Shown here: one piece after another, positions 7,941 to 54,572 of the stretch
Layout of the letters: the number at the start of each line of letters is the position of its first letter
Numbering within the stretch: the stretch's first letter is position 1
Source of the DNA: a virus
Length of the DNA: 64,000 nucleotides
Virus record (IMG/VR): IMGVR_UViG_3300027963_000048
Coordinates: 32,001 to 96,000 of that record
Reading direction: 5' to 3' (one strand)
Position numbers and translations under genes: made by a program
The notes under the pieces: generated by a model
Databases searched by the model: none
Seen by the model: the letters and a program-made list of their open reading frames with translations, nothing else
What the model was told of the DNA's origin: nothing

Positions 7941-8740
7941 ACCTGTTGAGCCTCCGCAAGCAACTCGGCCATTTTCTCTTGCGTGATTTTCGTCTTGAAA
8001 TGATCTAACACATCATCGTAAGGTAGCCCCAATTCGATACGGCCGACGATATAATTAAATATTCTGTCTTCTAGTACTAAGCGAAATGGAATGCCTTTTG
8101 GTCTGTTAAAGCGATGTAGCCATTTCAGAAATGGTAAACAGATGTTTTTACCGCCTTTCTGTCTCGTTTTCTCTTGGATATAACCCTCTTCACCGCCAAA
8201 TCCTCGAAAATTGTAGTTAAAGCCGGGCCAAGATTTAGTTCGCATCAGGAGCAAACCACAACCTTGCATAGGTATTTCGAATGGATCGCCGCTAGCGTGC
8301 TGCGGGTTTGTGCCCCAAGTACCGAACATATCACCTGACCAAACGGGATCGAAATGGGTACTTACGTTGATCATATCATCGTAGACGAGAGGACCTTGGT
8401 ACAGATCATTCGAATTCCAATTATCAAGCAGGAACTTGGATAGTTTCTTTATAGAATCTGAAGGGAGAAGCACATGACAATCGATGCACATGGTAAATGG
8501 CGTGGTACTATGCTCGAAGACCTTCTGCTTTCCATATGCTGGCCCGATCCCATGTGGCTCGTGGTAATAGGCGGCTTGAGCTGATGTACACAGGTCTCGT
8601 AAGGCATGCTGTCCGCTAGGTTGGGTGTCGATCACGATGATTTTGAAGGCATTGCCGTGATACATCCTAAGCGCTTGTACAGTGAAATAAGCGCCATCGT
8701 AATCATCATAAACTGGCAAGCCTATTGTTAGCACGTCCAT
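7877..8740 (-). CDS. Glycosyltransferase family 2
   Basis: LTIGLPVYDD, IVID, CIDCHV, FRGFGGEE, WLHRF. Confidence 0.8.
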   Translation of the reverse strand: MDVLTIGLPVYDDYDGAYFTVQALRMYHGNAFKIIVIDTQPSGQHALRDLCTSAQAAYYHEPHGIGPAYGKQKVFEHSTTPFTMCIDCHVLLPSDSIKKLSKFLLDNWNSNDLYQGPLVYDDMINVSTHFDPVWSGDMFGTWGTNPQHASGDPFEIPMQGCGLLLMRTKSWPGFNYNFRGFGGEEGYIQEKTRQKGGKNICLPFLKWLHRFNRPKGIPFRLVLEDRIFNYIVGRIELGLPYDDVLDHFKTKITQEKMAELLAEAQQVQAPGMPRSFSPGLLPVRANA

Positions 8741-8770
8741 ATTTTATCGTACGTTCGCTAGGCTCGATGG

Positions 8771-9187
8771 TTACAATACACCTTGCCTTTTAGCTATCTT
8801 CGCTAAAACCGTCAGAAACTGTGGCATTATTTCTATAACATCTGGGTTTGCATCAAGCCATTCTTGCCCCAACTGAGTAGCTAAGGCTTCAACAGATGTG
8901 ATATTGCGCAGAATGTTATTGGTCTTTATCGTAGATAATTCAGTAGCGTTGCCTTTTATCCAGAAGCTTTCTGAGCTGAAATTCGATCCATCATCAGATA
9001 GGATGTTGCACCCGAGTAGGAACCATTGGTCGTAGGTTGCACCAGGCACAGGTGGGACCACCGTAGGGTCGGTCGCTGGAACTTCTGGAAATACTGGCTC
9101 AGGGATGCTTGGAGCAATCGTGGTGGTGGTGACATCAGGTGTTACAGGCGCTTCCGTGGTAGTCGTTGTGATATCTGGATCAGGCAT
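8771..9187 (-). CDS. Hypothetical protein with Thr/Pro-rich N-terminus
   Basis: AAGGAG RBS; TTTTT/P-rich low-complexity N-terminus. Confidence 0.6.
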   Translation of the reverse strand: MPDPDITTTTTEAPVTPDVTTTTIAPSIPEPVFPEVPATDPTVVPPVPGATYDQWFLLGCNILSDDGSNFSSESFWIKGNATELSTIKTNNILRNITSVEALATQLGQEWLDANPDVIEIMPQFLTVLAKIAKRQGVL

Positions 9188-9282
9188 CGCATCTCTCCTT
9201 AAGTGTTAAGGTATCTTCACTAGGCATCAATCAATTATCTATCTTTTAATTAAAAGATACTTTTATTGAACGTCTGATTAAG

Positions 9283-9564
9283 ATGGAGCCGACCATGTCT
9301 ACACCAATGCAAGCATTGCAGACTATCTTGGAAGAACTAGACACGCAAGAATTGTTTCTATCTGATTTCGAAGATACATTGGGCGAGGTAGTAGATAATC
9401 TTATAAAGTCTGCAGCAGCTGCTACACCGGAAGTCAAGTCTACTATAGAAGCCGTGATTAACTCACTTGAACAAATGGCAAGTCCGGAACATGATGTGAA
9501 AGACACGCTGTTACAGCTAAGTGACATTTTTAGGAAATGTGCAATCGATGCGTCCGCCAGTTAA
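9283..9564 (+). CDS. Hypothetical acidic helical protein
   Basis: 93 aa ORF, likely start ATG 9295 after GGAG. Confidence 0.55.
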   Translation: MEPTMSTPMQALQTILEELDTQELFLSDFEDTLGEVVDNLIKSAAAATPEVKSTIEAVINSLEQMASPEHDVKDTLLQLSDIFRKCAIDASAS

Positions 9565-11197
9565 CAAATTCGGTAAAGATCTCTTGCAATGGGCCCTAAA
9601 AAATAAGCATATATCGCAATCAGAACAAGCTTATATTCTAGGGATTTCTCTAGAAGCCTATAGACGTAGGATTAGGACAGCAGGCAAGCCGAAAGGGGTA
9701 TCGAATTTTAAACCAACGGGTAACCCGCTACCATGTATCCCACCAGATGGCCATTACAGTGACCCTGTCTGGTTACGTGACGCCTACGCCAAGCACTCCG
9801 TGCGAGATCTTGCCAGGCACTTCGGCATATCAAGTAAGAGGATAACAGATTACTTAACAAAATTCCGAATATCGAAACCAGTTGTACCGGTTAGCCCCTA
9901 TAATAACAGACAATGGTTATTTTTTTATTATTGGGTAAAGAGATTAAACGTAGCTCGCTTAGCCAAGAGAGCTGGAGTAGCATATGGTACCATTATGAAT
10001 TGGCTAACGAAGCATAGAGTGCCTATCCGACACATAGGGATCAGCAAACACCAGAGATTTCACGAGCATTATGTCTCGACCTTCAGGCAAATCCGCAACT
10101 GTCAGTGGCTGTCGGTAATTTGGCATGACCAAAAGTTCATCATGCTTTACGCTAATTTGAGGAAACGGTATTTTATAACATTGCATTTCGTAAACAAGGT
10201 CACAGATGGTCTGCAGATCACGCTATGGCAAAAACCAGCTATAACCGACTGGGATCGAATCTTTGTCTCGTGCAAAGAAGGCGATCTAACGCAAGAGCAG
10301 GCTAATCCCGCATATCTTAAAGCCACGATGGATTTCTCAGCCCATCCCTTGCATAGGATAGCGGTCCGAATGCAATTCTTTGACATGTTCAAAGCACAAA
10401 ACGGAAGATTCGATTTCGATAAATCTGATCTACTAGCCGATTTACAACAATGCTATGATACTAAACGCTCATTGATCACCAGAAATGGGAAATGGTTTTT
10501 CCATAGCATGCAGGGTAACAAGAAACAGAAGGGTAGACGCATTGCTTTCCATTGTTGGGGTTTATCTGAATATGTTAATAAATGGTATAGCATGCCGAAG
10601 TTTTTGCGCTGGGCTCCGCATCGTTATTTCGATAAAATTCAAAATCCCACCACTTTCGATATGCTAAATCAGGTATGTCAACACCGACGAAATAGCAGAC
10701 ACCCGGATCTACTTCCAGAGCCGTCCCTTTTAAGATTCATTTTAGAAGAGATAAAACCGGAGACCATGGTAGATCTTTGGCCTAATAAAGGCTTAAATGC
10801 TATCTCAGCACATATGGCTAATGTGCACTATCATAGCAGAGTGATAAGCGATGACAATATAAAACGTTTAAAATCCATCGGTATCTACGCCTACAGAGAG
10901 GATCCGTATCGCAAGTATGACCTTCTGGTTTGCCTGTCTAAGACATATAAAGTGAAGCCTTGGATGTTAGAGGGATTCTTCAGTAAGGCAGATAGGATTT
11001 TAATATATGCTAGTGCTTGGCATATTGGTGACACTATTAATTTGTACAAGCCTGAGCGTGTCTTCTCGTTAATCAATAGGTTCAAATCTAGAAAACCTCC
11101 GTATTATTTGCTATTGTTGAAAAAGGATGAGACGATGGCCTCGATTAGAGGCGCATCAGAGACATGGCCCAGTGAATTCCCACCCCGGCAAAGCTAA
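9548..11197 (+). CDS. Multi-HTH basic DNA-binding protein with degenerate methyltransferase-like C-terminus
   Basis: Repeated WL...Y...S...LA...G.S...I...L.K..I HTH units; C-terminal PETMVDLWPNKG resembles a decayed SAM-binding loop. Confidence 0.5.
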   Translation: MRPPVNKFGKDLLQWALKNKHISQSEQAYILGISLEAYRRRIRTAGKPKGVSNFKPTGNPLPCIPPDGHYSDPVWLRDAYAKHSVRDLARHFGISSKRITDYLTKFRISKPVVPVSPYNNRQWLFFYYWVKRLNVARLAKRAGVAYGTIMNWLTKHRVPIRHIGISKHQRFHEHYVSTFRQIRNCQWLSVIWHDQKFIMLYANLRKRYFITLHFVNKVTDGLQITLWQKPAITDWDRIFVSCKEGDLTQEQANPAYLKATMDFSAHPLHRIAVRMQFFDMFKAQNGRFDFDKSDLLADLQQCYDTKRSLITRNGKWFFHSMQGNKKQKGRRIAFHCWGLSEYVNKWYSMPKFLRWAPHRYFDKIQNPTTFDMLNQVCQHRRNSRHPDLLPEPSLLRFILEEIKPETMVDLWPNKGLNAISAHMANVHYHSRVISDDNIKRLKSIGIYAYREDPYRKYDLLVCLSKTYKVKPWMLEGFFSKADRILIYASAWHIGDTINLYKPERVFSLINRFKSRKPPYYLLLLKKDETMASIRGASETWPSEFPPRQS

Positions 11198-11213
11198 AGA
11201 GAAGGAGATTATA

Positions 11214-13835
11214 ATGGCCACAGCTTATACTCGGATTCCTCCCTACACACAACTTACGGATGCGTCGACTGTAGCAATATCAGGCCCAGATGGTCTGGCT
11301 ACTGATTACCTATTCGACGCTCAAAGCCGAGCGCTGTGGTTCAAGGATGCGCAAGCGGCTACGTTTCTACACGGCACGACGCACATCAGCGAAGACCCGA
11401 TCCCTGGAGCAACGTGCGACACGCCAGGGTTACTGTCAGCTAACGACAAATGTAAGCTCGATGCGTTGTTGCAGACCAGAATCGGCGTACTAGGTTTTCA
11501 AGGTGCCGGATTCCCAGACGATGGCGGTTGGCTCCAAGGCGATATCATTTTGGCTGCAGGCACGGAATTTATCAGCCTCGAACGTATCGGCAACGTTGTC
11601 CGCTTTACTGTCGATAGCCCAGTCCCGCTTACATGCTCATGCGAATCATGTAACCAGATTTTCTGGGTGCAAGATGATACAGACACCGCAAGTGTCCGCC
11701 CTCCCGTTTGCTCAGGCAAATTGCCTGGTGTTAACTCCTATGGCGAGTTAAAGGTCTACGTCTTTCCGCAGAGCACGATAGTTGATCCAAATAACCCGTC
11801 GGCCAAGTTAAATCTAAAAGGCAATTATCCATCATTGATCTTTAAACGCTATGATGATACATTATCACCTGGGTCGGCTGAATTCGAATTGACCCTTAAG
11901 CGCAGCTCATTAAATAAGCTCGTAATGGAGACTGGGTGGGCTTTCACCCCCGGAGCGGTAGGTGGAGTAGCCGAATGCATCTGGTTTACTGGCTTGGATG
12001 CCGACGGCAAGCAAACCAGCTTCCAATTTAAACCAGATTCTGACTCTAATGCCCTCGGCATGCTGTTGTACAAAGGCAATCTAATTACAAAGAAGATGGG
12101 AGTGGTTACAGGATATGATTCATCAATCCTGACCAGTAACATCTATCAATGGCGCCAATGGGATATCCTAAATCAAAAACCCATTGGCGATTCTTATACA
12201 GCCACTAACGTTTGGATGTACAAAAATCCCGGCAGCGTCAGCACTGGTACCAGCGCTCAGGCGTTGATGCTTGACTATACAATCGATATCTTGCCAATTG
12301 GAACGTTAACCGATATCTGGGCATTTCAAGTCGGTGAAGTGAACGGCGTGGTTAACTACCGATATTTCTTTAATCAACGGCCAAGTATTAACCCGAATCA
12401 AATCTGGTCCACGATCGACCACGTAAGCTTCGGCGACACCGTCGTAGCACGTGACATCCAAAATGAAATAGCACACAGTGTCGATGGCTTTCCGATGACG
12501 ACTGACGTTCAGCCTGCTACCATTTACGATGACGGTCGTAACATAGAATTGAGCCGCTGGGGTATAACCAATTACGACGTACCAATCATCCCAATCACCG
12601 CAAATGGAGTAACTGGAACCGGACCTGTGCAGGCTAGCGACCTCAACGGCGCTTACATCGACACGACAAGACCAGCATTATTGGTTTATCCAAACGCGCA
12701 CACGTCAGCTGGCACAGCGCCTTTCGGAAACTACCAGCAGCCCACTATGATTTGGAGTCGGTCAAGCCTTAAAGATGGTTTGATACGTATCAGAATGGGG
12801 CGGCCAGGGTCTCCTGGGACCATTGGTGGTTTGAGTTCATACTTTGGCCCGGTCATAGGCAGAAACTACTTCGACGTGCTATTGAAGGCTAAGATTGATG
12901 AAGAGATGGAAGCTTATGGCCAGGTCGAAGCCATTGGTACTTTCGATGGATATCCGTTCATCCAAATATCTGGTGTTGCGTTCCACGATATTCCCAAGTT
13001 CGGAACTATAGAAATAATCAGCACCAGCTCTGCGACGGCTGGTAAGACTTTCCAATTTAACCGCAAGACGATCTTTGCAGGTGGGACTGGAACTGGCACC
13101 GTCAAGGATCTGGTCATGGGTACCGTACTGCTGAACACGTACACCGGCGCTGAACCATACGTTGGTCAAGCGGGTGACATCGTCAGATTCATCCAACAGG
13201 ATTACTCAAATCCAGTCGCAAGGACCATCTGGAATTATCAAGTCGTCGATGGGCAACCGATCACCACTTTGCAATTTACAGTCGGTATGCTTGATATGAC
13301 CAAACCTTACAATTATAACACTTACCCTGTAGAGGCAACGGAACCCCAAGCTAGTGACATTATCAGGGGCCTGAATGATACAGGCACTTACGGTGGTCCG
13401 ATCAGTAGTGCGATCTACCAGCAGAATGGCTTGTACTTTGGTACTGGCACCAAACCACCAAGCAGCGTAAGCTCATTCTTCATCGTTGAAGGCGGTAGTT
13501 TTGGAAGTAGCGATGGTAAAGAGTATTGGAACGAACTGACGATTATGGTTAAAAGTGAGCAAGTCTGGATTTGGTGGAACGACCTCTTAATCCCACCAAA
13601 TGCTAATGAGACTAACGCTCAACAAAATCCACCTACGTTCCAAATCACTCAGCCATACTATCTGATGAAAGACTTCAGTGCTCTCACGAGTGCAAGCCCT
13701 GCTTATTATCAAAAGGAAATGGAAGGTAAATACGGTATTCGATGCTTCCCCGGAGCCGTGATTAGGGATATCGATATCAAGGGACAAGTGCAATTGTTCA
13801 ACGAATACATCTACGGAAATCTAAATCTTGGCTAA
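11214..13835 (+). CDS. Virion structural protein (tail fibre/baseplate associated)
   Basis: ATCDTPGLLSANDKCKLD tail-fibre-type motif; G/T/S-rich beta-type composition; AAGGAG RBS before ATG 11214. Confidence 0.6.
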   Translation: MATAYTRIPPYTQLTDASTVAISGPDGLATDYLFDAQSRALWFKDAQAATFLHGTTHISEDPIPGATCDTPGLLSANDKCKLDALLQTRIGVLGFQGAGFPDDGGWLQGDIILAAGTEFISLERIGNVVRFTVDSPVPLTCSCESCNQIFWVQDDTDTASVRPPVCSGKLPGVNSYGELKVYVFPQSTIVDPNNPSAKLNLKGNYPSLIFKRYDDTLSPGSAEFELTLKRSSLNKLVMETGWAFTPGAVGGVAECIWFTGLDADGKQTSFQFKPDSDSNALGMLLYKGNLITKKMGVVTGYDSSILTSNIYQWRQWDILNQKPIGDSYTATNVWMYKNPGSVSTGTSAQALMLDYTIDILPIGTLTDIWAFQVGEVNGVVNYRYFFNQRPSINPNQIWSTIDHVSFGDTVVARDIQNEIAHSVDGFPMTTDVQPATIYDDGRNIELSRWGITNYDVPIIPITANGVTGTGPVQASDLNGAYIDTTRPALLVYPNAHTSAGTAPFGNYQQPTMIWSRSSLKDGLIRIRMGRPGSPGTIGGLSSYFGPVIGRNYFDVLLKAKIDEEMEAYGQVEAIGTFDGYPFIQISGVAFHDIPKFGTIEIISTSSATAGKTFQFNRKTIFAGGTGTGTVKDLVMGTVLLNTYTGAEPYVGQAGDIVRFIQQDYSNPVARTIWNYQVVDGQPITTLQFTVGMLDMTKPYNYNTYPVEATEPQASDIIRGLNDTGTYGGPISSAIYQQNGLYFGTGTKPPSSVSSFFIVEGGSFGSSDGKEYWNELTIMVKSEQVWIWWNDLLIPPNANETNAQQNPPTFQITQPYYLMKDFSALTSASPAYYQKEMEGKYGIRCFPGAVIRDIDIKGQVQLFNEYIYGNLNLG

Positions 13836-14145
13836 GTTTACTCGGAGATTGGCGGTTAGCAGAGGCACGCACAAGGTCTCTGCTACCGAAGAAAACATCA
13901 AGGTCAAAATAAGACGAGCACTACTAACTGACCCTTTAGAACATGAACCCGTAAGTCCCTTCTCGAAAGGCCTGAAAGGCCATCAATTCATCGGTGAATT
14001 TAGTTTCAATGGAGTGCCCGCTCACGGGTTCGTGTTAAGGATATACGAACAGGGCCGGATGATCTTTAAGAGGGTCGTGCCACCTTCAGGCATTATTGGC
14101 GCTTTACCGTTAAAATCTAACCATTCCTATGTCATTACCCTCTAA
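13828..14145 (+). CDS. Hypothetical protein
   Basis: 105 aa ORF overlapping the stop of the upstream structural gene. Confidence 0.5.
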   Translation: MAKFTRRLAVSRGTHKVSATEENIKVKIRRALLTDPLEHEPVSPFSKGLKGHQFIGEFSFNGVPAHGFVLRIYEQGRMIFKRVVPPSGIIGALPLKSNHSYVITL

Positions 14146-15949
14146 TGAAATTACGCAGCAGCTTACTTTCAGCGAGGACACTCATTGTAATGCGGGTGTC
14201 GATTGAACGCAAGAGCTTATCTAATGATTCTACAATGATCGCACGGTCGATCGCATCCCATTCGTTAAAGAAATTGTAAGCGCTCTGCTGCTGTTGCAAT
14301 GCCTTTTCTTGCTCTGTTTTGGCCTTGCGTTTCGTGCCGCCTTCGGACGCTTCGTTACGCAAGATCAAAGCGACGGCTTTTAATTTTCCAAGTACCTCGT
14401 TGTATCTGTCTCGGCTCAGTTTATTGCTGTAAGTTAGCTTGCCTGGTGGTGCTACTTTTCCTTCTTTAGCCAGTTCTGTTAATTCTTCCTCTTCCGTCTC
14501 GAAACTGCGACGGATGCCATCAAGTGATAAGACTGGCATTCCGCTACGCAGCCAAGGCGATTTGTATGGTGGGCCTTCTTTGCTTGGTTCTAACTCAGGG
14601 TCTTCCGTCCCAGCGACGTACCAGCCCGGATTACCACGTGGTATTTGGATATTAGATCTTTCTGTGCCTTTGCCAGGGTAACTAGCAGCGGCTTCACCTA
14701 AGATCCGGAGGAGCATCCGGTATTCGGTCTCCTTCACCTTGGTGGTGTCGTAGGTCGATTGACCGCCAGTCGGTAGGCCAAGCTCAGTAAGTTTAGCTAG
14801 ATATGGCGTGTCTTTTATCATGTCTGCGTAGCCGTACAGCATTAACTCTATCATGTCGCTGATCATACCAGGATCTAAGCGATCAGCTTCTTGAGTCATA
14901 CGGTCTGGAACCGACCCTGCGGCTGAGGTGACACCACCTTCGGGGCCTTCCTTGGGCTTATCGAGGCTGGTCGTTTTAATCTGGGTTACGCGGTCCGGCG
15001 TGTCGATTGTACTAAGCATACCGGTGGAAGCACCCTTAGATGACGCCTGATTAAAGAAGTCAATGCGTTCTTGTAGTGCTATTATCCCCTGCAGTGCCTT
15101 TTTGGTAGCTTCCTCGTCTCCTGAGGATGCTATAGCGGCAAACTCTTTACAGGCTTTGACGATGTCGGTGCTGTACCAGCCAAATGGGTTATCTATGTTT
15201 TTGTCACTGCGCGATTCAACGTCGAATGGGGGCTTGACTTGTGCTGCTACCTTTAGCGCTTGCTCTGCGGTAGGATTGTCAATGATCGATTGCAGGCCCT
15301 TTATTCCATATAAAGGGTGGTTTTTGTGTAGTTGCGATGACTTTCCTGATGCAGCCATAGTCTCGGCTGTGCCGCCTAAGCCGTTAAGCATTGCGTGCTT
15401 TACGTCTACCATGAGCCGTTTGATGAATGGTGGTTCGCCTCTGTCTACACCTGGCCGAATCATTTGACTTAGAGCTGTTAGGCCAAGCGAATAATAGTCT
15501 TCCCAAGACCCAGAACGGCTTCCTTTGCCAGCTAGCTTTTTCGCTATGCGATAAACTGGCGCCGATCCGTATGAGCCAGGATTGCGTGGTGATCGTCCCT
15601 TTTCGGTATCACTACGTGTCTGCCCAGTGATAGCTACGGTGGGGTCTCCCGCTACCGCGATGATGAATTGCTCAGGCGTGAATTGCGGCGCTGGCCCGCC
15701 GGGAGCAAAGTCCGGCGGTGGGGTAAAATTCTTGCTGCGCCATTCTTTTGTATAATGCGCCTTGCTATCGAGCGGATTGATCGTATTATGCAATATGTCT
15801 TCTGCATAGCCACGATTATAACCAGCTGCGTAGGGATCTATCCAAGGCGCAGTCTTACTGTCTGCTTCAGAAAGGATCAGCTTAAATGCTGCAGCGCTTT
15901 CAGCTATCAGCCGAGCCAAAGATGCCGATAAAGAAGATTTAAAATCCAT
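14135..15949 (-). CDS. Divergent sigma70-family factor, possibly virion-packaged
   Basis: Region 2-like PVYRIAKKLA..WEDYYSLGLTALSQMI..DRGEPPFIKRLMVDVKHAM (aa ~130-190); region 3-like TTSLDKPKEG; region 4-like ETEYRMLLRILG..LSLDGIRRSF..LSRDRYNEVLGKLK; I/L-x-E motifs at both ends. Confidence 0.55.
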   Translation of the reverse strand: MDFKSSLSASLARLIAESAAAFKLILSEADSKTAPWIDPYAAGYNRGYAEDILHNTINPLDSKAHYTKEWRSKNFTPPPDFAPGGPAPQFTPEQFIIAVAGDPTVAITGQTRSDTEKGRSPRNPGSYGSAPVYRIAKKLAGKGSRSGSWEDYYSLGLTALSQMIRPGVDRGEPPFIKRLMVDVKHAMLNGLGGTAETMAASGKSSQLHKNHPLYGIKGLQSIIDNPTAEQALKVAAQVKPPFDVESRSDKNIDNPFGWYSTDIVKACKEFAAIASSGDEEATKKALQGIIALQERIDFFNQASSKGASTGMLSTIDTPDRVTQIKTTSLDKPKEGPEGGVTSAAGSVPDRMTQEADRLDPGMISDMIELMLYGYADMIKDTPYLAKLTELGLPTGGQSTYDTTKVKETEYRMLLRILGEAAASYPGKGTERSNIQIPRGNPGWYVAGTEDPELEPSKEGPPYKSPWLRSGMPVLSLDGIRRSFETEEEELTELAKEGKVAPPGKLTYSNKLSRDRYNEVLGKLKAVALILRNEASEGGTKRKAKTEQEKALQQQQSAYNFFNEWDAIDRAIIVESLDKLLRSIDTRITMSVLAESKLLRNFIRG

Positions 15950-15959
15950 CGAAGTAACC

Positions 15960-16496
15960 TCATAGCGTTTTATTATTTTTCATGGGAAGGTATAACAGAT
16001 TGTGGTTGACTTTTGCTCGGTCTAGAAACTCACGAAAAGGAAATTCAGTAGGTTGGTAATATAATTCCCGATGCTTCCGTATAAGACAGCTGCGAAGATC
16101 AACAGCTCCAAATTGATCCGTTGCAAATACAACGTCAGCCTTGTAATCGTCCAACGCTTGTTTCATTTTCGATAGTAGATCTTTTGGCTTGACACTATTC
16201 CAATATATGAAGCAAGGACCTAAGCTGTTATGGCTTGCGAGGTTTAGACACGTGCCGACAGTTAAGTCTTCCTCGGTATCATAAATCGACACCATACGCG
16301 CCGCTTCAATATCTAGATCAGCGGCTTTGGTTAAATTACTGGTATTATTAAGCAAGATGATTTCTTTATATGGATAATCTTGCTCTTGAACATTAGAAAG
16401 CAACTCCATGGCGTTATCATGTGCGTCAGGATATACGATTAGGGCCACACTGATTAGTTCAATGTGGCCCGTATGATTAGATTTTTGGAGTGACAT
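15960..16496 (-). CDS. Degenerate GT2-like protein
   Basis: QEQDYPYKEIILLNN and GTCLNLA match the GT2 N-terminus, but the DxD position reads IYWNS. Confidence 0.5.
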   Translation of the reverse strand: MSLQKSNHTGHIELISVALIVYPDAHDNAMELLSNVQEQDYPYKEIILLNNTSNLTKAADLDIEAARMVSIYDTEEDLTVGTCLNLASHNSLGPCFIYWNSVKPKDLLSKMKQALDDYKADVVFATDQFGAVDLRSCLIRKHRELYYQPTEFPFREFLDRAKVNHNLLYLPMKNNKTL

Positions 16497-16800
16497 TAGT
16501 GAGAATGTACTCGATGATCTTTTTAAGCAGGAAGCTAGCGATCAGTTCCCAAGGGAATAGCAAATGCGGTTGAGGCTCGCCGTTAGCGACGATCTCTATT
16601 AGTGTTAAAGGGTCTTGCTCGGCTGCTTGCGAGACGAATTGTGTGCCCTCTGGAGCACCAAGGATTTGCTTTTGGCAGTAACCTTGTACCACCCAAGCAT
16701 CTAGGGCGAATTGAGCCCGATTCTCTACGACTGTGCCAGCCCTCAACAGCTTTACTACGTTGAGCATTTCTTGAACTGGGACATCTGCCGGATAATTCAT
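16477..16800 (-). CDS. Hypothetical protein
   Basis: AGGAGG RBS; amphipathic C-terminus. Confidence 0.6.
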   Translation of the reverse strand: MNYPADVPVQEMLNVVKLLRAGTVVENRAQFALDAWVVQGYCQKQILGAPEGTQFVSQAAEQDPLTLIEIVANGEPQPHLLFPWELIASFLLKKIIEYILTNVTPKI

Positions 16801-16845: not shown

Positions 16846-17109
16846 ATGAAACTAAATCGGATAATAGAAGACAGTAACTTCAATTCAGTCCAACCGGCTG
16901 GAGTAAATTCATGGGCTGGGGCCAAGATGGCACAAGATATCATGGATCCAGAATTACACACGCCCGATAACGAACCCACAGACGTTAACCTATCATCACC
17001 GGGTGCAGAAGAGACTGATCTACTCACTACCAGCATTGATGATACAGAAAAAGCGATGGATACCTTCTCATGGATGATCCCAACCTTCAAGGATCCAACG
17101 GTAAAATGA
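16846..17109 (+). CDS. Small acidic protein with MKLxxIIE leader (putative internal head protein)
   Basis: Starts MKLNRIIED; AAATATA-N4-ATG upstream. Confidence 0.55.
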   Translation: MKLNRIIEDSNFNSVQPAGVNSWAGAKMAQDIMDPELHTPDNEPTDVNLSSPGAEETDLLTTSIDDTEKAMDTFSWMIPTFKDPTVK

Positions 17110-17639
17110 CATTCTCAGACACACTTGACCTCCTGATGGTCGACCCGAAGCAAGTTGAACGCAATAGCGTCCTGCAAGACTGCATCCACACTTCGAAAGA
17201 ATTAGAAAAAACGCGCTACAAATTGATGAATCTAGAACATAAGCTCAAGACACTGCACCATAAACTAAATTGCGAGTTAGCTATGCAATTTAGGAAGGAA
17301 TACCCTAATTTAAATATTAATATTCATAGAAACAATTGCAAAGTAGGCTATAAAAGCAAGCATCTTCTACTAAAACCAGACTTCAAGAAGCAATTTTGGA
17401 GCGTCGACAGTGCCGATTCAGCGTTCGCTAACAGATTCAAGCGAGACGCAAGGGCTGTCTTACTGCTGAGTACACCATTGACCGAATTAATAGCCAAAAT
17501 AGCTGAATTTTTCCGTCTAGCCTATAAAAGCTTAGGCGAAGACATAACTGATCATGACGGAGTGTTGATTATCGAAGGTAAATCAGCCAATTTGATGCAA
17601 CTTGTCCAATTTTCGAGGAGCGCCGATGTTATCTCTTAA
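17106..17639 (+). CDS. Hypothetical protein
   Basis: ATGA overlap with the upstream gene. Confidence 0.6.
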   Translation: MTFSDTLDLLMVDPKQVERNSVLQDCIHTSKELEKTRYKLMNLEHKLKTLHHKLNCELAMQFRKEYPNLNINIHRNNCKVGYKSKHLLLKPDFKKQFWSVDSADSAFANRFKRDARAVLLLSTPLTELIAKIAEFFRLAYKSLGEDITDHDGVLIIEGKSANLMQLVQFSRSADVIS

Positions 17640-18489
17640 GAGCATAGTCTCAGTTATTAAGGCAGCGATTGGAAACCAGGCCTCCTACATGCCAGTTTAT
17701 GAAGATACTAACATGTTAAGCTTCGTCGTAGCTGGTAACCAGAAAGACCTGCTACCTGCGATATCAACCGTAAGAGCCAAATGCGAGGCATGGGGCTTGC
17801 ATTGTGAGGACGCCAGAGTCAGAGGTGGGCGAGTTTGCATGATTAGTCACCGAGCCCTTTCCGAGCACGAAACCGCCATCATCGGTTCCTTGCTTGGTGA
17901 GCAGATAAACTTAGGCACCTTTGAAAACAGACTCGACAGGGCGCTCCAAGAAGATCAATTCAAATCAGCGACGTCTGGTATTACCAGAGCGAACCAGTCA
18001 AGTCGTCAGCGGCAGTACTACGACCCGAAAAGGGCAACGTACGCCGGTAAAAGAACACTACCTACAAGAAGAACTGCCGTATCAGAGAGTATACATGGCA
18101 TAGCGACAGCTACCGGCGAACAGCCTAAAGCTCTATTCCAGAAATTCGGAGTCGCATTGAGAAGCCTTGGTAACAATTTAGGGATAGGTGCAATACAAGA
18201 CATCCTAAAATCCAAAGGTATCCAATATAAAAAATCTAATGACGGATTAAGTCTAATATTCACAGTAAAGAACGCACAGACTGGAACTGATATACCAATC
18301 CACCGCATCACATGTGAGACGCTCGAAAGTCCGAACGACTTCCAAGAATCGTTATTGGCTCTTCTAGATATAGCAAGAGGTGATGCACCAGGGTCATTTC
18401 AGGCTAAGCAAGCACAAATGCAAGATATTCAGAAATCAGCCAGAGAGATCTCTACGGCGGTGGCTAGTCCTAACCCTCTGCAACAGTAG
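17626..18489 (+). CDS. Hypothetical protein (possible processed head protein)
   Basis: GAGGAG RBS; internal ALSE/ALQE/AVSE motifs. Confidence 0.6.
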   Translation: MLSLKSIVSVIKAAIGNQASYMPVYEDTNMLSFVVAGNQKDLLPAISTVRAKCEAWGLHCEDARVRGGRVCMISHRALSEHETAIIGSLLGEQINLGTFENRLDRALQEDQFKSATSGITRANQSSRQRQYYDPKRATYAGKRTLPTRRTAVSESIHGIATATGEQPKALFQKFGVALRSLGNNLGIGAIQDILKSKGIQYKKSNDGLSLIFTVKNAQTGTDIPIHRITCETLESPNDFQESLLALLDIARGDAPGSFQAKQAQMQDIQKSAREISTAVASPNPLQQ

Positions 18490-18495
18490 ACTCAC

Positions 18496-20172
18496 ATGAA
18501 ACTTGCACTTATTCTAGAGGCGAAGCTTAACCGCCCTTGGCTCGAAAAACAGCTCGGTAAAGATAATCCAGCTGTTCAAAAAATCGTGAACACTGATCCA
18601 ACCGAAGGTTCATATTACCAATGGTTGGCATCTTTGTACAAGAAGCGCGGATCAGATGACTTCTTAACTCGGGAATTACGCGCAGACATCGACGAATGGG
18701 ATCGCAATAAACAAGCATTGAAAAATCTTGAAATCAGCAGTGACTTAAACGGCAAGGACTTGACGTACTTGGCGGACAATCTAGAATCATTAAGGTACGA
18801 TAGGGCTTTGAGAGCGTCTACAGGCTTAGGCAGCGGTGTCTATCACCTCAGTAAAGATTATCCAGGCGCTAAAATATTACTGAATGACGGACAGTATATT
18901 CTGTTCGAGATAGCGGGCAAAGACGCAGCTTCGATTGATAGTCTTGAGCGACTTGGGATGGGCACGTCTTGGTGTACTAGAAAAGGCAGTAATATCAGTG
19001 GGGCTGCGCAGCGATATCTAAAATCACGCACGCAGTATGTTCTATATAGGGATAAAAAACCTCTATATCAATTCGATGATAAAGACTTCATGAATGCTAG
19101 AAATGAAAATGTTATCCCTGAGCGTGATGCCGCTTCGAAGATCCTTGATGCCATGGGATATGCGTGTAATGAAGCATTGATGGTGGCTCAGATAGCCTAT
19201 GGCGATCCGAAATCTGTCAATATGACGCAAGACATGGTCAATAAGTACAAGCAAGGTGTATACCGTTTCGATGGAGTTACCGGTTTTCAACGCATTCCAG
19301 CGTTGGAAGCGTTTATCAAGTCAGACATGCACGAATACATCTTGTACGCCACCCAAATTCTAAAAAGGCGCGTGCCGGAAATCGAGGAATGGTTCATTAA
19401 TAATAACAATAAGTTTAGATCCCATACACAGCGCTACTTTACTGACCACTTGACTAACTACCTGTTATCATGCTGCAAATTTGAGGAATGGCCGGAGGGT
19501 GAAGAACTGCTGAAGGAGAATTTGGCTGCATATACACGTTATTTTGTGCAACGCCGCACTCAACCCAACGTGTTAATAGAACGTTCGCCTGAATTGGAAA
19601 AATGGCTGTTAGCCGCCGTTAATTTGGTACCCGTGGATTTTGTAGAAGATGGCAATCTAAATCTGATATTAAATTACCTATGGGACCTCAAAGTTGGAGA
19701 ATGGCCGGAAGGTGAGAAAAGACTCCTTAACAGTGCTAGCTTAGAGGGTTTACGGTATGCTATACACGTACACAAACGTTCCATAGCCGTAGAGAATTGG
19801 CTGGCGGCAGAGTGCTCAATCTTCCATGTCAAGGATTACGTAGCCCATGTGACGGATGGTAAACCGATTCCAGATTTCGAAGATAAAGCCATAGCGGCTA
19901 TGAAGTCCTCTTTAGCAACTAAGCCGCGTGATGGACAGTATCCGTATCCGGAACCTGTTTTCGCAGCGAGGTACGCACTTGAGGTATTAAAGCGACGGTG
20001 GCCTGCTGCTGAAAATATAATCTCGCTTGGTCGGCCTAACCATCCAGACATTGAAGCGTATTTTAAAGAATTCAATTATGCCATGGGTCATCAAGGCTTA
20101 ACTAACCAACCGTCAGGACGTACAGGAATGCCCGGCCAAAAGCCATGGGCTCTGTACAGCGAATCAAAGTAG
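18496..20172 (+). CDS. Paralogue 1: MKLxLILE leader, G-T-x-W-C-T domain and degenerate WPEAE helical repeats
   Basis: N-terminal ~200 aa clearly homologous to the next two genes. Confidence 0.75.
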   Translation: MKLALILEAKLNRPWLEKQLGKDNPAVQKIVNTDPTEGSYYQWLASLYKKRGSDDFLTRELRADIDEWDRNKQALKNLEISSDLNGKDLTYLADNLESLRYDRALRASTGLGSGVYHLSKDYPGAKILLNDGQYILFEIAGKDAASIDSLERLGMGTSWCTRKGSNISGAAQRYLKSRTQYVLYRDKKPLYQFDDKDFMNARNENVIPERDAASKILDAMGYACNEALMVAQIAYGDPKSVNMTQDMVNKYKQGVYRFDGVTGFQRIPALEAFIKSDMHEYILYATQILKRRVPEIEEWFINNNNKFRSHTQRYFTDHLTNYLLSCCKFEEWPEGEELLKENLAAYTRYFVQRRTQPNVLIERSPELEKWLLAAVNLVPVDFVEDGNLNLILNYLWDLKVGEWPEGEKRLLNSASLEGLRYAIHVHKRSIAVENWLAAECSIFHVKDYVAHVTDGKPIPDFEDKAIAAMKSSLATKPRDGQYPYPEPVFAARYALEVLKRRWPAAENIISLGRPNHPDIEAYFKEFNYAMGHQGLTNQPSGRTGMPGQKPWALYSESK

Positions 20173-20185
20173 GCACGGAGATCAC

Positions 20186-21649
20186 ATGAAACTATCACTC
20201 ATACTAGAGGCTAAACTTAATCGCCCCTGGCTCGAAAAACAGCTCGGTATAGATAATCCAGCTGTTCAAAAAATCGTAGACACCGACCCAACTGGCGGAT
20301 CTTATTACAAATGGTTAACTGCGCTTTATCAAAAGTCGCAATCCGATGATTTTCTCACGCCCGAATTAAAAGCCGACATCGGAGAATGGGCCAATAACGC
20401 AAGAGCTATCAAAAGTGCAGGATTAAGCTCAGACTTGAACGGTAAAGATCTCGCATACTTCTATGACGTGCTAGCAAAAATGCGGCAGTATAAAGCCATT
20501 AAAGCCTCACACACTAAAAATAGTGGGGCCTATTATTTATTCAATAATTATCCAGGGGCCGAAGCTATTTATAATGACGGCAATTATATCATGTTTAAAG
20601 TCGAAGGCAAGAACGAAGAATCGATAGACAGCTTGCAGAAACTCGGAATCGGAACCGGATGGTGCACCAGGCTAGGCGGCGATGTGGAGGGTGCCGCTGA
20701 AGAATACTTATCTGATACGCAATATGTGTTGTATAAAAATGGTGAGCCTATCTGTCAATTCAGTAGACAAGACTTTAAAGATGTGCGTGATGAAGAATAC
20801 AAGCCACCTGCTGATGTGTTACGATTAATACTTAAAGTGGTCGGCCCAATTAATGATCAATTAAAGACGCTAGAGATAGGACAAAGGATAGCTGAATCAA
20901 ACAACTTCGCCGATGCATCACCCGAAGACCTGTGTCGCTATGCTGTGGCCATGAAACAGCGGTGGCCAGAAGCTGAGCCAATCATTAAAACATCACCAAA
21001 GTGGGCCCGAGAATACGCATTAAACGTCTTAGGGGAAACGTGGCCTGACGCCGAACCGTATATCATGACAGACCCTCAGTCTGCCGTGGTTTATGCTATA
21101 CATCTAAAGGGTCGATGGCCGGAAGCTGAAAAATATATCAAGCAAGATCCCGGATATGCTATACTATACGCTAGAAAATTATTTAATAAAGGCGAACGAT
21201 TTCTTGAAGCCGAGCCGTATATCGAAAAGGACGCTCGCATGGCGTTCGAATACGCCCAAAGAATCATAAAAGGTGAATGGCCAGACGCAGAAAAGTATAT
21301 CATGCAGGATCCTCAGGTGGCCTACAATTATGCTGCTTACGTGAGGGAAGACCGCTGGCCAGCAGCTGAACCCATCATAATGCGAGATCCTCAGGTAGCA
21401 TACAAGTATGCTTATGCTTTCATAAATGGTGAATGGCCAGAGGCGGAACCATACATAATGACTGAACCATATACAGCATATGCTTACGCTAGGTTTCTAA
21501 AAAGGGAGCGATGGCCAGAGGCCGAACCGTACATCAAGAAGAATCCCGAGGCCGCTAAACTTTATTTTGATTGGGTTAATAAGGATATCAGCAGAGGTGC
21601 GGACGCCTATGATGACTCGTCGAGTTGGGTTGATGCACGAAATATATAA
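20186..21649 (+). CDS. Paralogue 2: MKLxLILE leader, GTGWCT domain and ~9 copies of a ~24-aa RWPEAEPYIMxDP repeat
   Basis: Clear internal tandem repeats in the translation. Confidence 0.8.
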   Translation: MKLSLILEAKLNRPWLEKQLGIDNPAVQKIVDTDPTGGSYYKWLTALYQKSQSDDFLTPELKADIGEWANNARAIKSAGLSSDLNGKDLAYFYDVLAKMRQYKAIKASHTKNSGAYYLFNNYPGAEAIYNDGNYIMFKVEGKNEESIDSLQKLGIGTGWCTRLGGDVEGAAEEYLSDTQYVLYKNGEPICQFSRQDFKDVRDEEYKPPADVLRLILKVVGPINDQLKTLEIGQRIAESNNFADASPEDLCRYAVAMKQRWPEAEPIIKTSPKWAREYALNVLGETWPDAEPYIMTDPQSAVVYAIHLKGRWPEAEKYIKQDPGYAILYARKLFNKGERFLEAEPYIEKDARMAFEYAQRIIKGEWPDAEKYIMQDPQVAYNYAAYVREDRWPAAEPIIMRDPQVAYKYAYAFINGEWPEAEPYIMTEPYTAYAYARFLKRERWPEAEPYIKKNPEAAKLYFDWVNKDISRGADAYDDSSSWVDARNI

Positions 21650-21691
21650 GCGCTAGAGAAAGCCAAACAATATAGAGCCATCAAAGCCTAA
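21650..21691 (+). pseudogene. Relic fragment of a further paralogue
   Basis: Translates ALEKAKQYRAIKA*, matching VLAKMRQYKAIKAS and ALEKIREHKAIKAS in the flanking paralogues. Confidence 0.55.
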
Positions 21692-21770
21692 ACCACCACG
21701 GCCACTAGCCGCTTCCTGCGCTCATATCATAGCAAATTTAACATGTACCCAATTTACAGGTATTCATAAA

Positions 21771-51952: not shown

Positions 51953-52042
51953 TATTTATTGGTTTAGGTGCGAGGGGGATTGCCCTCTCGCACTTTCTTT
52001 GTCACATGTGGTCGGTGGTTCACGTGTTAGGAGGGGTGTGTT

Positions 52043-52534: not shown

Positions 52535-52785
52535 TGCCTAGTTTTAAGTTGACTATTGGTGTTGAGGTGGATGTTGATAATGTGATGGATCCTACTACTA
52601 GTTTGAATGTTATTAACAATAGGATCTATGATAAATGTATTGCTCGGGATGATGTAGAGTTCGATGGTATGGGTTTTACAAATGGGCAGTGCGAATTCGG
52701 GTTCACAGTTGAAGCGGTTGAATTGGCTGATGCTTTGAGTGTGGTTGTTGAATGTATTAGGAATTCTAACATTGGAGGTGTATGA
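52534..52785 (+). CDS. Hypothetical protein
   Basis: AAGGAG RBS. Confidence 0.55.
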   Translation: MPSFKLTIGVEVDVDNVMDPTTSLNVINNRIYDKCIARDDVEFDGMGFTNGQCEFGFTVEAVELADALSVVVECIRNSNIGGV

Positions 52786-52997: not shown

Positions 52998-53088
52998 TAG
53001 GGGATTTCTTGCTCATCTGATTTCTGTCACAATTGGTTGGTGAGGGAGAACGGTTTTTCCTCACCAAATGCGAAAGCGGGAGGTTGCG

Positions 53089-54025: not shown

Positions 54026-54039
54026 TTGGAGGGTGTGCG

Positions 54040-54567: not shown

Positions 54568-54572
54568 GGAGT

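What the first reader, a model, noticed from the sequence alone, without database searches (positions are those of the whole stretch)
14135..15949. Candidate virion-packaged divergent sigma factor paired with a private early-promoter class
Seen in sequence: the 604-aa ORF aligns by eye, in the correct order, to sigma70 region 2 (PVYRIAKKLA / WEDYYSLGLTALSQMI / RGEPPFIKRLMVDVKHAM vs LVISIAKKY / FLDLIQEGNIGLMKAV / RGYKFSTYATWWIRQAI), region 3 (TSLDKP) and region 4 (EYRMLLRILG, LSLDGI, LSRDRYNEV..KLK), with large insertions. Both termini carry clustered I/L-x-E motifs (LIAE, ILSE at the N end; IIVE, VLAE at the C end), and the gene lies among structural genes. Established: T4 prohead protease cleaves after I/L-x-E in packaged proteins such as Alt and the internal proteins. 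Inference: the sigma is made late, packaged, matured and injected, and redirects host core RNAP to the GGATTT-N17-TGYCAYA promoters. That would be an early-transcription strategy distinct from host-sigma use and from virion RNAPs.
Basis: partly seen in the sequence, partly recalled or inferred. Interest (0 to 1): 0.9.

Follow-up and report, generated by a model that had tools for sequence, protein, structure and literature searches.

The report
Divergent phage sigma factor with capsid-targeting leader
A 604-residue protein of an uncultured freshwater T4-like jumbo phage is a very divergent bacterial-type sigma factor that starts with the kind of short leader T4-type phages use to load proteins into the capsid, so it may be the first sigma factor delivered with the phage DNA; delivery and its promoter targets remain unproven.

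Summary
The ORF is real. It lies on the minus strand (window 14135-15949) of a 115.6-kb fragment of a roughly 355-kb T4-like jumbo phage. No Pfam, PHROG or PDB sequence match exists for it. It belongs to a family of 77 cluster representatives, nearly all from aquatic metagenomes.

Profile and fold comparisons show a sigma-70 architecture in the right order:
- a region 1.2-like helix;
- region 2, with a roughly 110-residue helical insert;
- a disordered linker;
- a region-4 helix-turn-helix, with a roughly 45-residue insert.

Region 3 is not.

About 90% of the family begins with a 15-18-residue helix ending in hydrophobic-x-Glu. The phage encodes a T4 gp21-type prohead protease (Peptidase_S77). 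Twenty-three ORFs in three related genomes start with MKLxx(I/L)xE, against 0.6 expected. Packaging is therefore plausible (about 0.55) but not shown.

The GGATTT-N17-TGYCAYA promoter class is real and recurs in one distant relative. A second relative carries the sigma-like gene without that motif. The phage also encodes a canonical sigma and a sigma-4-only protein, so the pairing is only an inference (about 0.3).

The scan noted this same stretch once more on this genome, and nowhere else.

The parts
14135..15949 (-). 604-aa ORF (P0001), a divergent sigma-70-family protein; coordinates include the stop codon
   Evidence: Family of 77 representatives.
15899..15949 (-). Residues 1-17: N-terminal leader helix ending in L-I-A-E17, the putative prohead-protease site and capsid-targeting propeptide
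   Evidence: Leader present in 52 of 58 family members. E17 is invariant in A4. The model shows helix 3-29 followed by a segment with pLDDT under 50 at 26-31.
15866..15898 (-). Residues 18-28: second copy of the leader-like stretch (FKLILSE28), found only in P0001 and its 80%-identical relative
   Evidence: alignment
15770..15817 (-). Residues 45-60: region 1.2-like helix (AEDILHNTINPL; family consensus AEDxLYHTIGPLT)
   Evidence: VIA alignments to the RpoS region 1.2+2 fragment 5h6x_B (model 45-310, 90 of 96 residues) and to sigma70 1sig_A.
15350..15562 (-). Residues 130-200: sigma region 2.1-2.3 core
   Evidence: hhalign to RpoD 383-450. Family member P0070 passes the Pfam Sigma70_r2 cut-off at the equivalent place.
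15044..15376 (-). Residues 192-302: helical-bundle insert within or after region 2
   Evidence: It matches only generic helical bundles.
14750..15013 (-). Residues 313-400: low-confidence acidic linker plus short helices. It occupies the position of region 3/3.2, but homology is not shown.
   Evidence: pLDDT 48-58 over about 320-360. hhalign found nothing.
14342..14746 (-). Residues 402-536: sigma region-4-type helix-turn-helix domain with a structured insert of about 45 residues (422-464; YPGKG..PRG..GW..EDPELEP)
   Evidence: AF2 of residues 396-548 gave pLDDT 86. About 27 of the 50 best VIA matches are sigma region-4 domains.
14228..14257 (-). Residues 565-574: conserved C-terminal motif D-x-I-D-R-x-I-I-x-E. 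It is a possible second protease site, or simply a structural motif.
   Evidence: Column counts.
15960..16800 (-). Two upstream genes on the same strand: 107 aa (16477-16800) and 178 aa (15960-16496, weak GT2-like). Both are conserved neighbours of the sigma-like gene.
7044..13835 (+). Conserved partner genes: 298 aa (7044-7940), 558 aa (9521-11197, HTH-containing) and 902 aa (11127-13835). In about 40 metagenome loci they follow the sigma-like gene directly on the same strand; here the sigma operon is inverted relative to them.
17070..23177 (+). Divergently transcribed neighbours: 189 aa and 295 aa (conserved partners), then three paralogues of 558, 487 and 468 aa that all start MKL(A/S)LILEAKLN
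51977..62533 (.). Array of GGATTT-N17-TGYCAYA promoter-like sites in front of small genes. This is the promoter class the finding links to the sigma.
30519..31088 (+). 189-aa protein with only a sigma region-4 domain (rival or auxiliary transcription factor)
   Evidence: Pfam Sigma70_r4 at 34.7 bits, above the 24.1 cut-off.

Best explanation
P0001 is a highly divergent member of the sigma-70 family, encoded by a clade of aquatic T4-like jumbo phages that have no RNA polymerase of their own.

Shown: it has a sigma region 1.2/2 domain and a C-terminal sigma region-4 helix-turn-helix in the canonical order, each carrying a large lineage-specific insert.

Inferred, step 1: its conserved N-terminal helix of 15-18 residues ending in hydrophobic-x-Glu is a propeptide or capsid-targeting leader. 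The phage's gp21-type prohead protease would cut it, so the protein is loaded into the prohead core, trimmed, and ejected with the DNA, as T4 does with Alt and the internal proteins.

Inferred, step 2: once inside the cell it binds host core RNAP through region 2 and starts transcription from phage-specific promoters before any phage protein has been made.

Inferred, weakest step: those promoters are the ATTT..-N17/18-G(C/T)CACA class that precedes the small-gene arrays.
For: Sigma identity
- hhalign places P0001 132-198 on RpoD 383-450: 56% against four E. coli sigmas, and 87% (E 4e-6) with cropped profiles.
- Four of 58 family members hit Pfam Sigma70_r2. P0070 scores 32.8 bits, above the 24-bit cut-off, at the equivalent position.
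- Structure search of the whole model returns about 12 sigma factors among the best 50 of 48,161 chains. Examples: SigB 8x6g_H Z 7.0; RpoS region 1.2+2 5h6x_B Z 6.9, rmsd 3.0, 90 of 96 aligned; SigE N-terminal domain 8b3z_A Z 6.5, 78 of 80; 1sig_A Z 6.4, rmsd 1.9.
- The separately folded C-terminal part (pLDDT 86) returns about 27 sigma region-4 domains among the best 50, the rest mostly LuxR/GerE HTH domains. Examples: 9n9q_C Z 5.7, rmsd 1.9, 63 aligned; FliA 181-234 Z 4.5; SigE and SigW region 4 bound to -35 DNA.

Core binding
- A complex prediction of residues 40-320 with E. coli beta' 220-350 gave weak support: score 0.48 against a best control of 0.01.
- The mark was reached by 58 of 80 solved complexes and 2 of 110 mismatched pairs. 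At 0.60 or under, only 7 of those 80 reached it, as did both mismatches.
- The runs agree in at least 71% of contacts, and partner pLDDT is at least 69.
- The pass may reflect memory of solved sigma-beta' complexes, and E. coli is a stand-in host.

No phage RNAP
- No Rpb2_6 or Rpb1_2 match in this fragment or in two complete 355-kb relatives.
- This agrees with the published statement that T4-like 'group 2' jumbo phages lack RNAPs and use sigma factors (PMC7824862).

Packaging
- The leader M..L..RL..RL..(I/L)xE is present in 52 of 58 representatives, against a 19% background, and in nearly all of about 40 metagenome copies. Its Glu is invariant in a 17-sequence alignment, while the residues after it vary.
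- A disordered linker follows the leader helix in the model.
- The genome encodes a Peptidase_S77 prohead protease at 65.6 bits, cut-off 27. That protease itself carries LNRRLIAE|T, and the capsid protein carries SVILE|N at residue 79.
- T4 gp21 cuts after L/I-x-E. Alt loses propeptides at both ends and is ejected to act on host RNAP (PMC9026906).
- Twenty-three of 1185 ORFs in three genomes start M[KR][LFVI]xx[ILMVFC]xE, against 0.59 expected.
- The conserved neighbour families of 298, 189 and 153 aa carry such leaders in many loci.

Promoters
- 19 sites against 0.49 expected, each 30-60 nt upstream of an RBS and ATG.
- The distant relative G001 has about 25 copies of ATTTAC-N15-GCCACA in its own small-gene region.
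- The sigma operon itself has no such site, as expected if it is expressed at another time.
Against: - No direct evidence exists for expression timing, cleavage, presence in virions or ejection.
- The leader is longer than, and different from, the 8-residue MKLxxIxE class. It could instead be a functional N-terminal helix of the sigma.
- In complete relatives the gene lies about 50 kb from the head genes, and most of its conserved neighbours (902, 558, 295, 178 and 107 aa) have no leader and no known function.
- I found no late-promoter consensus, so 'made late' is unsupported.
- The same fragment encodes a canonical sigma (G000 304-1245: Sigma70_r4 56.7 bits, phrog_351 E 9e-23) and a sigma-4-only protein. 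Either could read the motif.
- G002 has the sigma-like gene but only 2 ATTT-N18-GYCACA sites against 1 in the control.
- The -10 box reads TGnCA(C/T)A(A/G)T, close to an extended -10 of a primary-type sigma. In the hhalign alignment, the region 2.3 aromatic pair of RpoD (WW) aligns to non-aromatic residues in P0001.
- Z-scores for both domains are modest (4-7). The argument rests on enrichment of sigma factors in the lists and on coverage of whole domains.
Confidence: 0.4

Rival explanations
1. It is an ordinary, non-packaged stage-specific sigma factor. It is made during infection and directs host core RNAP to middle or late phage promoters, filling the role that gp55 has in T4. The N-terminal helix is part of the factor, for example an autoinhibitory or core-contacting element like region 1.1, not a propeptide.
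For: - The sigma fold evidence applies equally.
- No T4 gp55 homologue (phrog_234) was detected in this fragment or in two complete relatives, so a late sigma is otherwise unaccounted for.
- The gene sits in a conserved module with large, highly conserved proteins that may be virion parts. The 902-aa neighbour gave only weak Atlas leads to tail-fibre-type domains.
- All previously described phage sigmas are made after infection (PMC7824862; PMC5259590).
Against: - The hydrophobic-x-Glu end of the leader is conserved far better than the residues around it. It matches the cleavage rule of the protease family the phage encodes.
- A disordered linker separates the leader from the body.
- Neighbour genes carry the same kind of leader.
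- No promoter class was found in front of structural genes that it could be assigned to.
Confidence: 0.35
2. It is a packaged and injected sigma-derived protein that acts against the host rather than as a promoter-specificity factor. It would occupy host core RNAP, or displace the host sigma, to shut off host transcription. The phage's canonical sigma or the host sigma would read the GGATTT-class promoters.
For: - The leader evidence for packaging applies as above.
- There is weak support for contact with beta' clamp helices: 0.48 against a best control of 0.01, with the caveats and counts given under the best explanation.
- The region 2.3 aromatic residues used for -10 melting are not aligned to aromatic residues.
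- A canonical sigma is available to read promoters.
Against: - An intact, well-conserved region-4 HTH with a recognition helix (VSKVAVSN..A..KLK consensus) argues for DNA binding.
- There is no precedent and no direct evidence.
Confidence: 0.12
3. The sigma resemblance is a chance or convergent helical similarity, and the protein is a structural or internal head protein with no role in transcription.
For: - P0001 itself has no Pfam, PHROG or PDB sequence hit.
- Foldseek found nothing significant for either model.
- VIA Z-scores are below the level at which helical proteins often match by chance (notes).
Against: - Two independent domains match the two sigma domains, in the right order.
- A bridging family member passes Pfam's curated Sigma70_r2 cut-off.
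- hhalign gives 87% for region 2.
- Sigma factors make up a quarter to a half of the top-50 lists out of 48,161 chains.
Confidence: 0.05

Closest known systems
Phage-encoded sigma factors of T4-like 'group 2' jumbo phages (RpoD-like and minimal HTH-only versions; Iyer et al. 2021, PMC7824862), SPO1 gp28 and T4 gp55
   Same: A phage without its own RNAP encodes sigma-family proteins to redirect host core RNAP. A sigma region 2 domain and a region-4 HTH are both present.
   Different: - At about 600 aa it is twice the usual size.
- It has large inserts in both domains, plus conserved N- and C-terminal extensions.
- It is undetectable with Pfam or PHROG models.
- It carries a protease-site leader.
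- It coexists with a canonical phage sigma.
- It is not a gp55 homologue: phrog_234 is absent.
T4 Alt and internal proteins IPI-III (capsid-targeting sequence, gp21 cleavage after L/I-x-E, ejection with the DNA; PMC9026906)
   Same: - It has an N-terminal leader ending in I-x-E, and possibly a conserved C-terminal site as in Alt.
- A gp21-family (Peptidase_S77) protease is in the genome.
- The proposed target, as for Alt, is the host RNA polymerase at the very start of infection.
   Different: - Alt is an ADP-ribosyltransferase that modifies RNAP, whereas this protein would be an RNAP subunit itself.
- The leader is 15-18 residues, against 7-10 in T4.
- Packaging is inferred, not measured.
Virion RNA polymerases that are injected: N4 vRNAP, and the multisubunit vRNAPs of phiKZ and AR9 (PMC7598289)
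   Same: The logic is the same: bring the means of early transcription in the particle, so that early promoters need not resemble host promoters.
   Different: Those phages inject a whole polymerase. This one would inject only the specificity subunit and borrow the host catalytic core.
PeSL (promoter-early stem-loop) cassettes of T4-type phages, the reading earlier agents of this scan gave to the motif array
   Same: There is one promoter-plus-hairpin unit in front of each of many small early-type genes.
   Different: The boxes (GGATTT / TGYCAYA) are not the host sigma-70 consensus. I did not test the PeSL reading itself.

Membership tests
Sigma-70 family | Region 2 domain (core-binding 2.1-2.2 and -10 recognition helices), by sequence profile | tested here: met
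   - hhalign 87%, E 4e-6 to E. coli sigma region 2.
- P0070, a family member, scores 32.8 bits on Pfam Sigma70_r2 (cut-off 24) at the aligned place.
- P0001 alone gives no Pfam hit.
Sigma-70 family | Region 2 fold | tested here: met
   VIA matches: 5h6x_B Z 6.9, rmsd 3.0, 90 of 96; 8b3z_A Z 6.5, 78 of 80; 1sig_A Z 6.4, rmsd 1.9. About 12 sigma factors appear in the top 50. The Z values are modest.
Sigma-70 family | Region 4 helix-turn-helix at the C-terminal side | tested here: met
   - Fold level: about 27 of the top 50 are sigma region-4 domains, Z 3.3-5.7, covering whole domains.
- Sequence level: hhalign to E. coli region 4 is negative; single family members give weak Sigma70_r4_2 and GerE hits.
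Sigma-70 family | Region 3 / 3.2 linker | tested here: inconclusive
   A low-confidence acidic linker sits at the right place. No profile match was found.
Sigma-70 family | Binds RNAP core (beta' clamp helices) | tested here: inconclusive
   Complex prediction with E. coli beta' 220-350 gave weak support: 0.48 against a best control of 0.01. E. coli is a stand-in host, and the pass may come from memory of solved complexes.
Sigma-70 family | Confers promoter-specific initiation | not testable with these tools
   Needs in vitro transcription.
T4-type head-packaged, protease-processed proteins (Alt / internal proteins) | The phage encodes a gp21-family prohead protease | tested here: met
   G000 22216-22965: Pfam Peptidase_S77 at 65.6 bits (cut-off 27); phrog_207 E 1.6e-41.
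T4-type head-packaged, protease-processed proteins (Alt / internal proteins) | N-terminal leader ending in L/I-x-E | tested here: met
   LIAE17 in P0001. The site is present in 52 of 58 family members, and its Glu is invariant in A4.
T4-type head-packaged, protease-processed proteins (Alt / internal proteins) | Found, trimmed, in virions and ejected | not testable with these tools
   The phage is uncultured, and no proteome is available.
T4-type head-packaged, protease-processed proteins (Alt / internal proteins) | Late expression with head genes | tested here: inconclusive
   - No late-promoter consensus was found.
- The gene is not adjacent to head genes in complete relatives.
T4 gp55 late sigma | Homology to the gp55 family (phrog_234) | tested here: not met
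   - No phrog_234 match in G000, G001 or G002 apart from a 14.8-bit match inside a canonical sigma gene.
- P0001 has no PHROG hit.
Sigma-like subunit of a phage multisubunit RNAP (phiKZ gp68 type) | The phage encodes beta/beta' homologues | tested here: not met
   No Rpb2_6 or Rpb1_2 match in G000, G001 or G002. No DFDGD-type motif occurs in ORFs of over 250 aa in G000 or in the two 21-kb loci L010 and L011. Very divergent RNAPs could escape these models.

The most novel reading that the evidence does not exclude
A sigma factor is carried inside the phage capsid, trimmed by the prohead protease and ejected with the genome. The phage would then capture host core RNAP at time zero and transcribe its early genes from promoters the host holoenzyme cannot read. 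This would be a third early-transcription strategy, beside use of the host sigma and injection of a whole virion RNAP.
Probability: 0.3. Interest if true: 0.9.

Novelty: new variant of a known kind. Interest (0 to 1): 0.72.

Why it matters
Phage-encoded sigma factors are well known, but all described ones are made after infection. Early genes are therefore thought to need either host-type promoters or an injected polymerase. A sigma with a capsid-targeting leader would fill the gap between these strategies. It would also explain how a jumbo phage without its own RNAP can use early promoters that do not match the usual sigma-70 consensus.

Apart from the injection question, this is a widespread family: 77 clusters at 50% identity, mostly lake and ocean metagenomes. 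It is a roughly 600-residue sigma-like family that current Pfam and PHROG models miss, with a fixed gene neighbourhood. It therefore changes how transcription in this large group of uncultured T4-like jumbo phages should be annotated.

It is directly testable with recombinant protein, the cognate protease and core RNAP.

Tried and rejected
Searches that found nothing
- Pfam and PHROG on P0001 itself.
- tblastn against 50,697 phage records.
- PDB sequence searches with the 3-sequence and 58-sequence profiles: only noise.
- Foldseek against the PDB for both models.
- hhalign of the family's middle and C-terminal parts against E. coli regions 3 and 4.

Tools and records that were unavailable
The 83.8-kb contig of the 80%-identical relative P0003 could not be fetched, so the best co-occurrence test of sigma and motif was not possible.
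- The long metagenome records behind L052-L090 are not held for whole-record pattern searches.

Motif searches
- A viral-contig scan for GGGGATTTCT-N15-TGYCACA found only two contigs with a single match each. The one examined, G003, has one copy and looks like chance.
- T4-type late promoter TATAAATA: 9 copies in the 115-kb fragment, by my estimate about what base composition predicts.
- k-mer enrichment upstream of genes found only the GGATTT/TGYCACA boxes.
- Reading the upstream regions of head and leader-bearing genes by eye gave no shared motif.
- A GGGATT-based search for the motif in G001 and G002 was unproductive. The dyad count then found the G001 class.
- G002's TTTAC-N15-TGTAA dyad is barely above its reversed control (23 against 12) and partly palindromic. 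I do not treat it as established.

Neighbour proteins
- The 902-, 298- and 558-aa neighbour families gave no PDB hits. The Atlas gave only weak leads for the 902-aa protein.

Not tried
- I did not look for RNA reads (look-up of sequencing runs, read laying), judging the chance of raw-read metatranscriptomes for this uncultured phage to be low.
Full report
WHAT IS THERE

The window is bases 32001-96000 of a 115,614-bp IMG/VR virus contig that CheckV rates 32% complete. The contig carries a large terminase, portal, head maturation protease and T4-type major head protein just upstream of the window. It also carries ribonucleotide reductase, helicase and DNA polymerase genes. Two relatives found through the target protein are complete or near-complete contigs of 354 and 356 kb. 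This is therefore a fragment of a T4-like jumbo phage of about 355 kb.

The finding's ORF is real but lies on the minus strand: 14135-15949, 604 aa.

THE PROTEIN FAMILY

P0001 has no Pfam, PHROG, phage-genome or PDB sequence match. A word-indexed search found only two relatives, at 80% and 31% identity. An exhaustive profile search found 77 cluster representatives, 55 of them at E below 1e-30 and mostly 550-800 aa. A metagenome scan returned 50 loci from lakes, oceans and sediments.

IS IT A SIGMA FACTOR?

Region 2
- Profile-profile comparison of the family with E. coli RpoD puts P0001 132-198 on RpoD 383-450.
- Probability is 56% against an alignment of RpoD, RpoS, RpoH and FliA. It is 87%, E 4e-6, when both profiles are cropped to the domain.
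- Four of 58 family members hit Pfam Sigma70_r2. The distant member P0070 scores 32.8 bits, above the curated cut-off of 24, at the equivalent place.
- A crude HMM of four E. coli sigmas places its region 2.1-2.3 positions at residues of about 110-180 in dozens of members.

Whole-protein model
- The AlphaFold model of the whole protein has pLDDT 82. It gave nothing with Foldseek.
- An exhaustive structural alignment against 48,161 chains returned about a dozen sigma factors among the best 50. These include SigB Z 7.0; the RpoS region 1.2+2 fragment Z 6.9 (rmsd 3.0, 90 of 96 residues); the SigE N-terminal domain Z 6.5 (78 of 80); and sigma70 1sig Z 6.4 (rmsd 1.9).
- The remaining matches cover residues 192-302, a helical-bundle insert.

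C-terminal domain
- I cropped residues 396-548 from 30 family members by DNA reference and folded the fragment alone, giving pLDDT 86.
- About 27 of the 50 best structural matches are sigma region-4 domains: FliA, SigL, SigH, SigK, SigF, CnrH, SigD, SigR, SigE and SigW bound to -35 DNA, sigma32, SigB and sigmaA. Most of the rest are LuxR/GerE HTH domains of the same fold class. Z is 3.3-5.7 over whole domains.
A structured insert of about 45 residues (422-464) lies between the first and second.

Region 3 and overall reading
- Region 3 is not supported. The stretch is a low-confidence linker.
- The Z-scores are individually modest. The case rests on three points: two separate domains each pull out the matching sigma domain, they lie in the right order, and a curated Pfam threshold is passed by a bridging member.
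- I put sigma-family membership at about 0.9.

Core binding
- A complex prediction of residues 40-320 with E. coli beta' 220-350 gave weak support: score 0.48, best control 0.01.
- The mark was reached by 58 of 80 solved complexes and 2 of 110 mismatches. At 0.60 or under, only 7 of those 80 reached it, as did both mismatches.
- The runs agree in at least 71% of contacts, and partner pLDDT is at least 69.
- The pass may come from memory of solved sigma-beta' complexes.

IS IT PACKAGED?

The leader
- The most informative new observation is the N-terminus. Across the family it reads M..L..RL..RL..(I/L)xE, with the Glu at residue 15-18, followed by a variable, often acidic stretch and then the conserved body (WKDP.S..YDRQ.AED).
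- Fifty-two of 58 representatives have a hydrophobic-x-Glu ending at residues 12-24, against a 19% background.
- The Glu is invariant in a 17-sequence alignment.
- In the model the leader is a helix followed by a disordered segment.

The protease and its rule
- The phage encodes a Peptidase_S77 protease, the T4 gp21 family, at 65.6 bits against a cut-off of 27.
- T4 gp21 cuts after L/I-x-E. It removes N-terminal propeptides from head proteins and capsid-targeting sequences from internal proteins. It trims both ends of Alt, which is then ejected and modifies host RNAP (PMC9026906).
- In this phage the protease itself has LNRRLIAE|T near its N-terminus, and the capsid protein has SVILE|N at residue 79.

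Other leader-bearing proteins
- Twenty-three of 1185 ORFs in the three genomes begin M[KR][LFVI]xx[ILMVFC]xE, against 0.59 expected. Almost all occurrences of that pattern are at ORF starts.
- Three paralogues right next to the sigma operon start MKL(A/S)LILEAKLN.

Caveats
- The sigma family's leader is longer than the 8-residue class.
- Most of the conserved neighbours have no leader.
- There is no evidence on timing or on virions.
- I put packaging at about 0.55.

GENE NEIGHBOURHOOD

In about 40 metagenome loci the gene order is fixed. The 295-aa and 189-aa genes lie on the opposite strand. Then come the 107-aa and 178-aa genes, the sigma-like gene, and the 298-aa, 558-aa and 902-aa genes. 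In this window the sigma operon is inverted relative to the last three.

The 298-, 189- and 153-aa families carry MKL-type or L.LILEE leaders in many loci. The 902-aa protein is the best conserved, at 66% mean column identity. No neighbour could be identified.

In the complete relatives the module is about 50 kb from the head genes. 'Among structural genes' is therefore unproven.

PROMOTERS AND THE PAIRING

The motif is real: 19 matches against 0.49 expected, and 17 exact matches in the whole contig against 0 for the reversed control. Each site lies 30-60 nt upstream of an RBS and start codon of a small gene.

A dyad count found a related class in G001, ATTTAC-N15-GCCACA. About 25 copies lie at 224-277 kb, again in front of small genes. 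The common core ATTT-N18-GYCACA gives 13 matches against 1 for the control in G001, but most G001 copies have a spacing one base shorter.

In G000 a G/C hairpin encloses GGATTT. In G001 a hairpin lies in the spacer. So the boxes, not the hairpin position, are what is conserved (sequences).

Read as TGnCA(C/T)A(A/G)T, the downstream box resembles an extended -10 element. This is my reading.

Against the pairing
- G002 carries the sigma-like gene but not this motif.
- The fragment also encodes a canonical sigma (G000 304-1245; phrog_351 E 9e-23, Sigma70_r4 56.7 bits) and a sigma-4-only protein (window 30519-31088).
- G001 and G002 also have canonical sigmas.

For a phage-specified reader
- No RNAP subunit and no gp55 homologue was found in any of the three genomes.
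- The published overview of jumbo phages describes sigma factors, but no packaged one, in T4-like jumbo phages (PMC7824862).
- Two further literature searches found no report of a virion-borne sigma.

VERDICT

- The sequence observation is largely right.
- The sigma assignment is well supported.
- Packaging is a serious but unproven hypothesis, resting on a conserved protease-site leader.
- The link to the GGATTT promoters is an open inference with a clear rival.

The family is a new, very divergent variant of a known kind. The injected-sigma reading, if true, would be a new early-transcription strategy.

Noticed in passing
window 18496-23177 (+), and ORF starts across G000, G001 and G002: An 8-residue leader MKLxx(I/L)xE starts 23 of 1185 ORFs in three related jumbo phage genomes, against 0.59 expected. 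It includes three adjacent paralogues of about 500 aa (MKL(A/S)LILEAKLN). This is probably a set of capsid-targeted cargo proteins.
   Followed up: partly
G000:C1:304-1245 (outside the window, locus L002) and window 30519-31088 (+): The same contig encodes a canonical phage sigma (phrog_351; Sigma70_r4 56.7 bits, weak region 2) and a 189-aa protein with only a sigma region-4 domain (34.7 bits). That makes three sigma-related proteins in 115 kb.
   Followed up: partly
G001 (IMGVR_UViG_3300013121_000020), about 224-277 kb, + strand: About 25 copies of ATTTAC-N15-GCCACA lie in front of small genes. This is a diverged version of the window's GGATTT-N17-TGYCAYA class, with the G/C hairpin placed in the spacer instead of around the upstream box.
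   Followed up: partly
window 11127-13835 (+): This 902-aa protein is the best-conserved member of the module (41-50% identity, 66% mean column identity). It has many invariant Cys, Trp and Gly residues and no match in Pfam, PHROGs or the PDB. Its real start is probably the ATG at 11214, since orthologues begin MA(L/I)xK(I/V)P.
   Followed up: partly
window 7044-7940 (+): The 298-aa partner gene lacks, in this phage, the MKLSxAxxxxxxE leader that its orthologues carry in about 25 loci. Either the start is mis-called or the leader has been lost.
   Followed up: no
window 23216-30468: A sugar-modification cluster on both strands: GT2, UDP-GlcNAc 2-epimerase, UDP-glucose/GDP-mannose dehydrogenase, a DUF1796 papain-like peptidase, GT11, a DegT-type aminotransferase and a DUF268 protein.
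   Followed up: no
G000:C1:5877-10268 (locus L002) and G002 180466-184833: The 1463-aa ribonucleotide reductase ORF has a helicase-like or unknown insert at residues of about 580-1030. In G002, the terminase matches fall in three separate pieces of one 1455-aa ORF. Both look like intein or homing-element insertions.
   Followed up: no
window 9521-11197 (+): The 558-aa conserved partner has two HTH-like stretches (residues of about 85-200; weak matches to HNH-endonuclease-associated and D5-like regulator PHROGs). A one-mismatch copy of the promoter motif lies inside its 3' end at 10995-11024, about 100 nt upstream of the 902-aa gene.
   Followed up: no
G002 (IMGVR_UViG_3300014208_000001), dispersed: The dyad TTTAC-N14-16-TGTAA is often palindromic (TTTTACA / TGTAAAA). 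It gives 23 copies against 12 for the reversed control. It is unclear whether this is a promoter, an operator or chance.
   Followed up: partly
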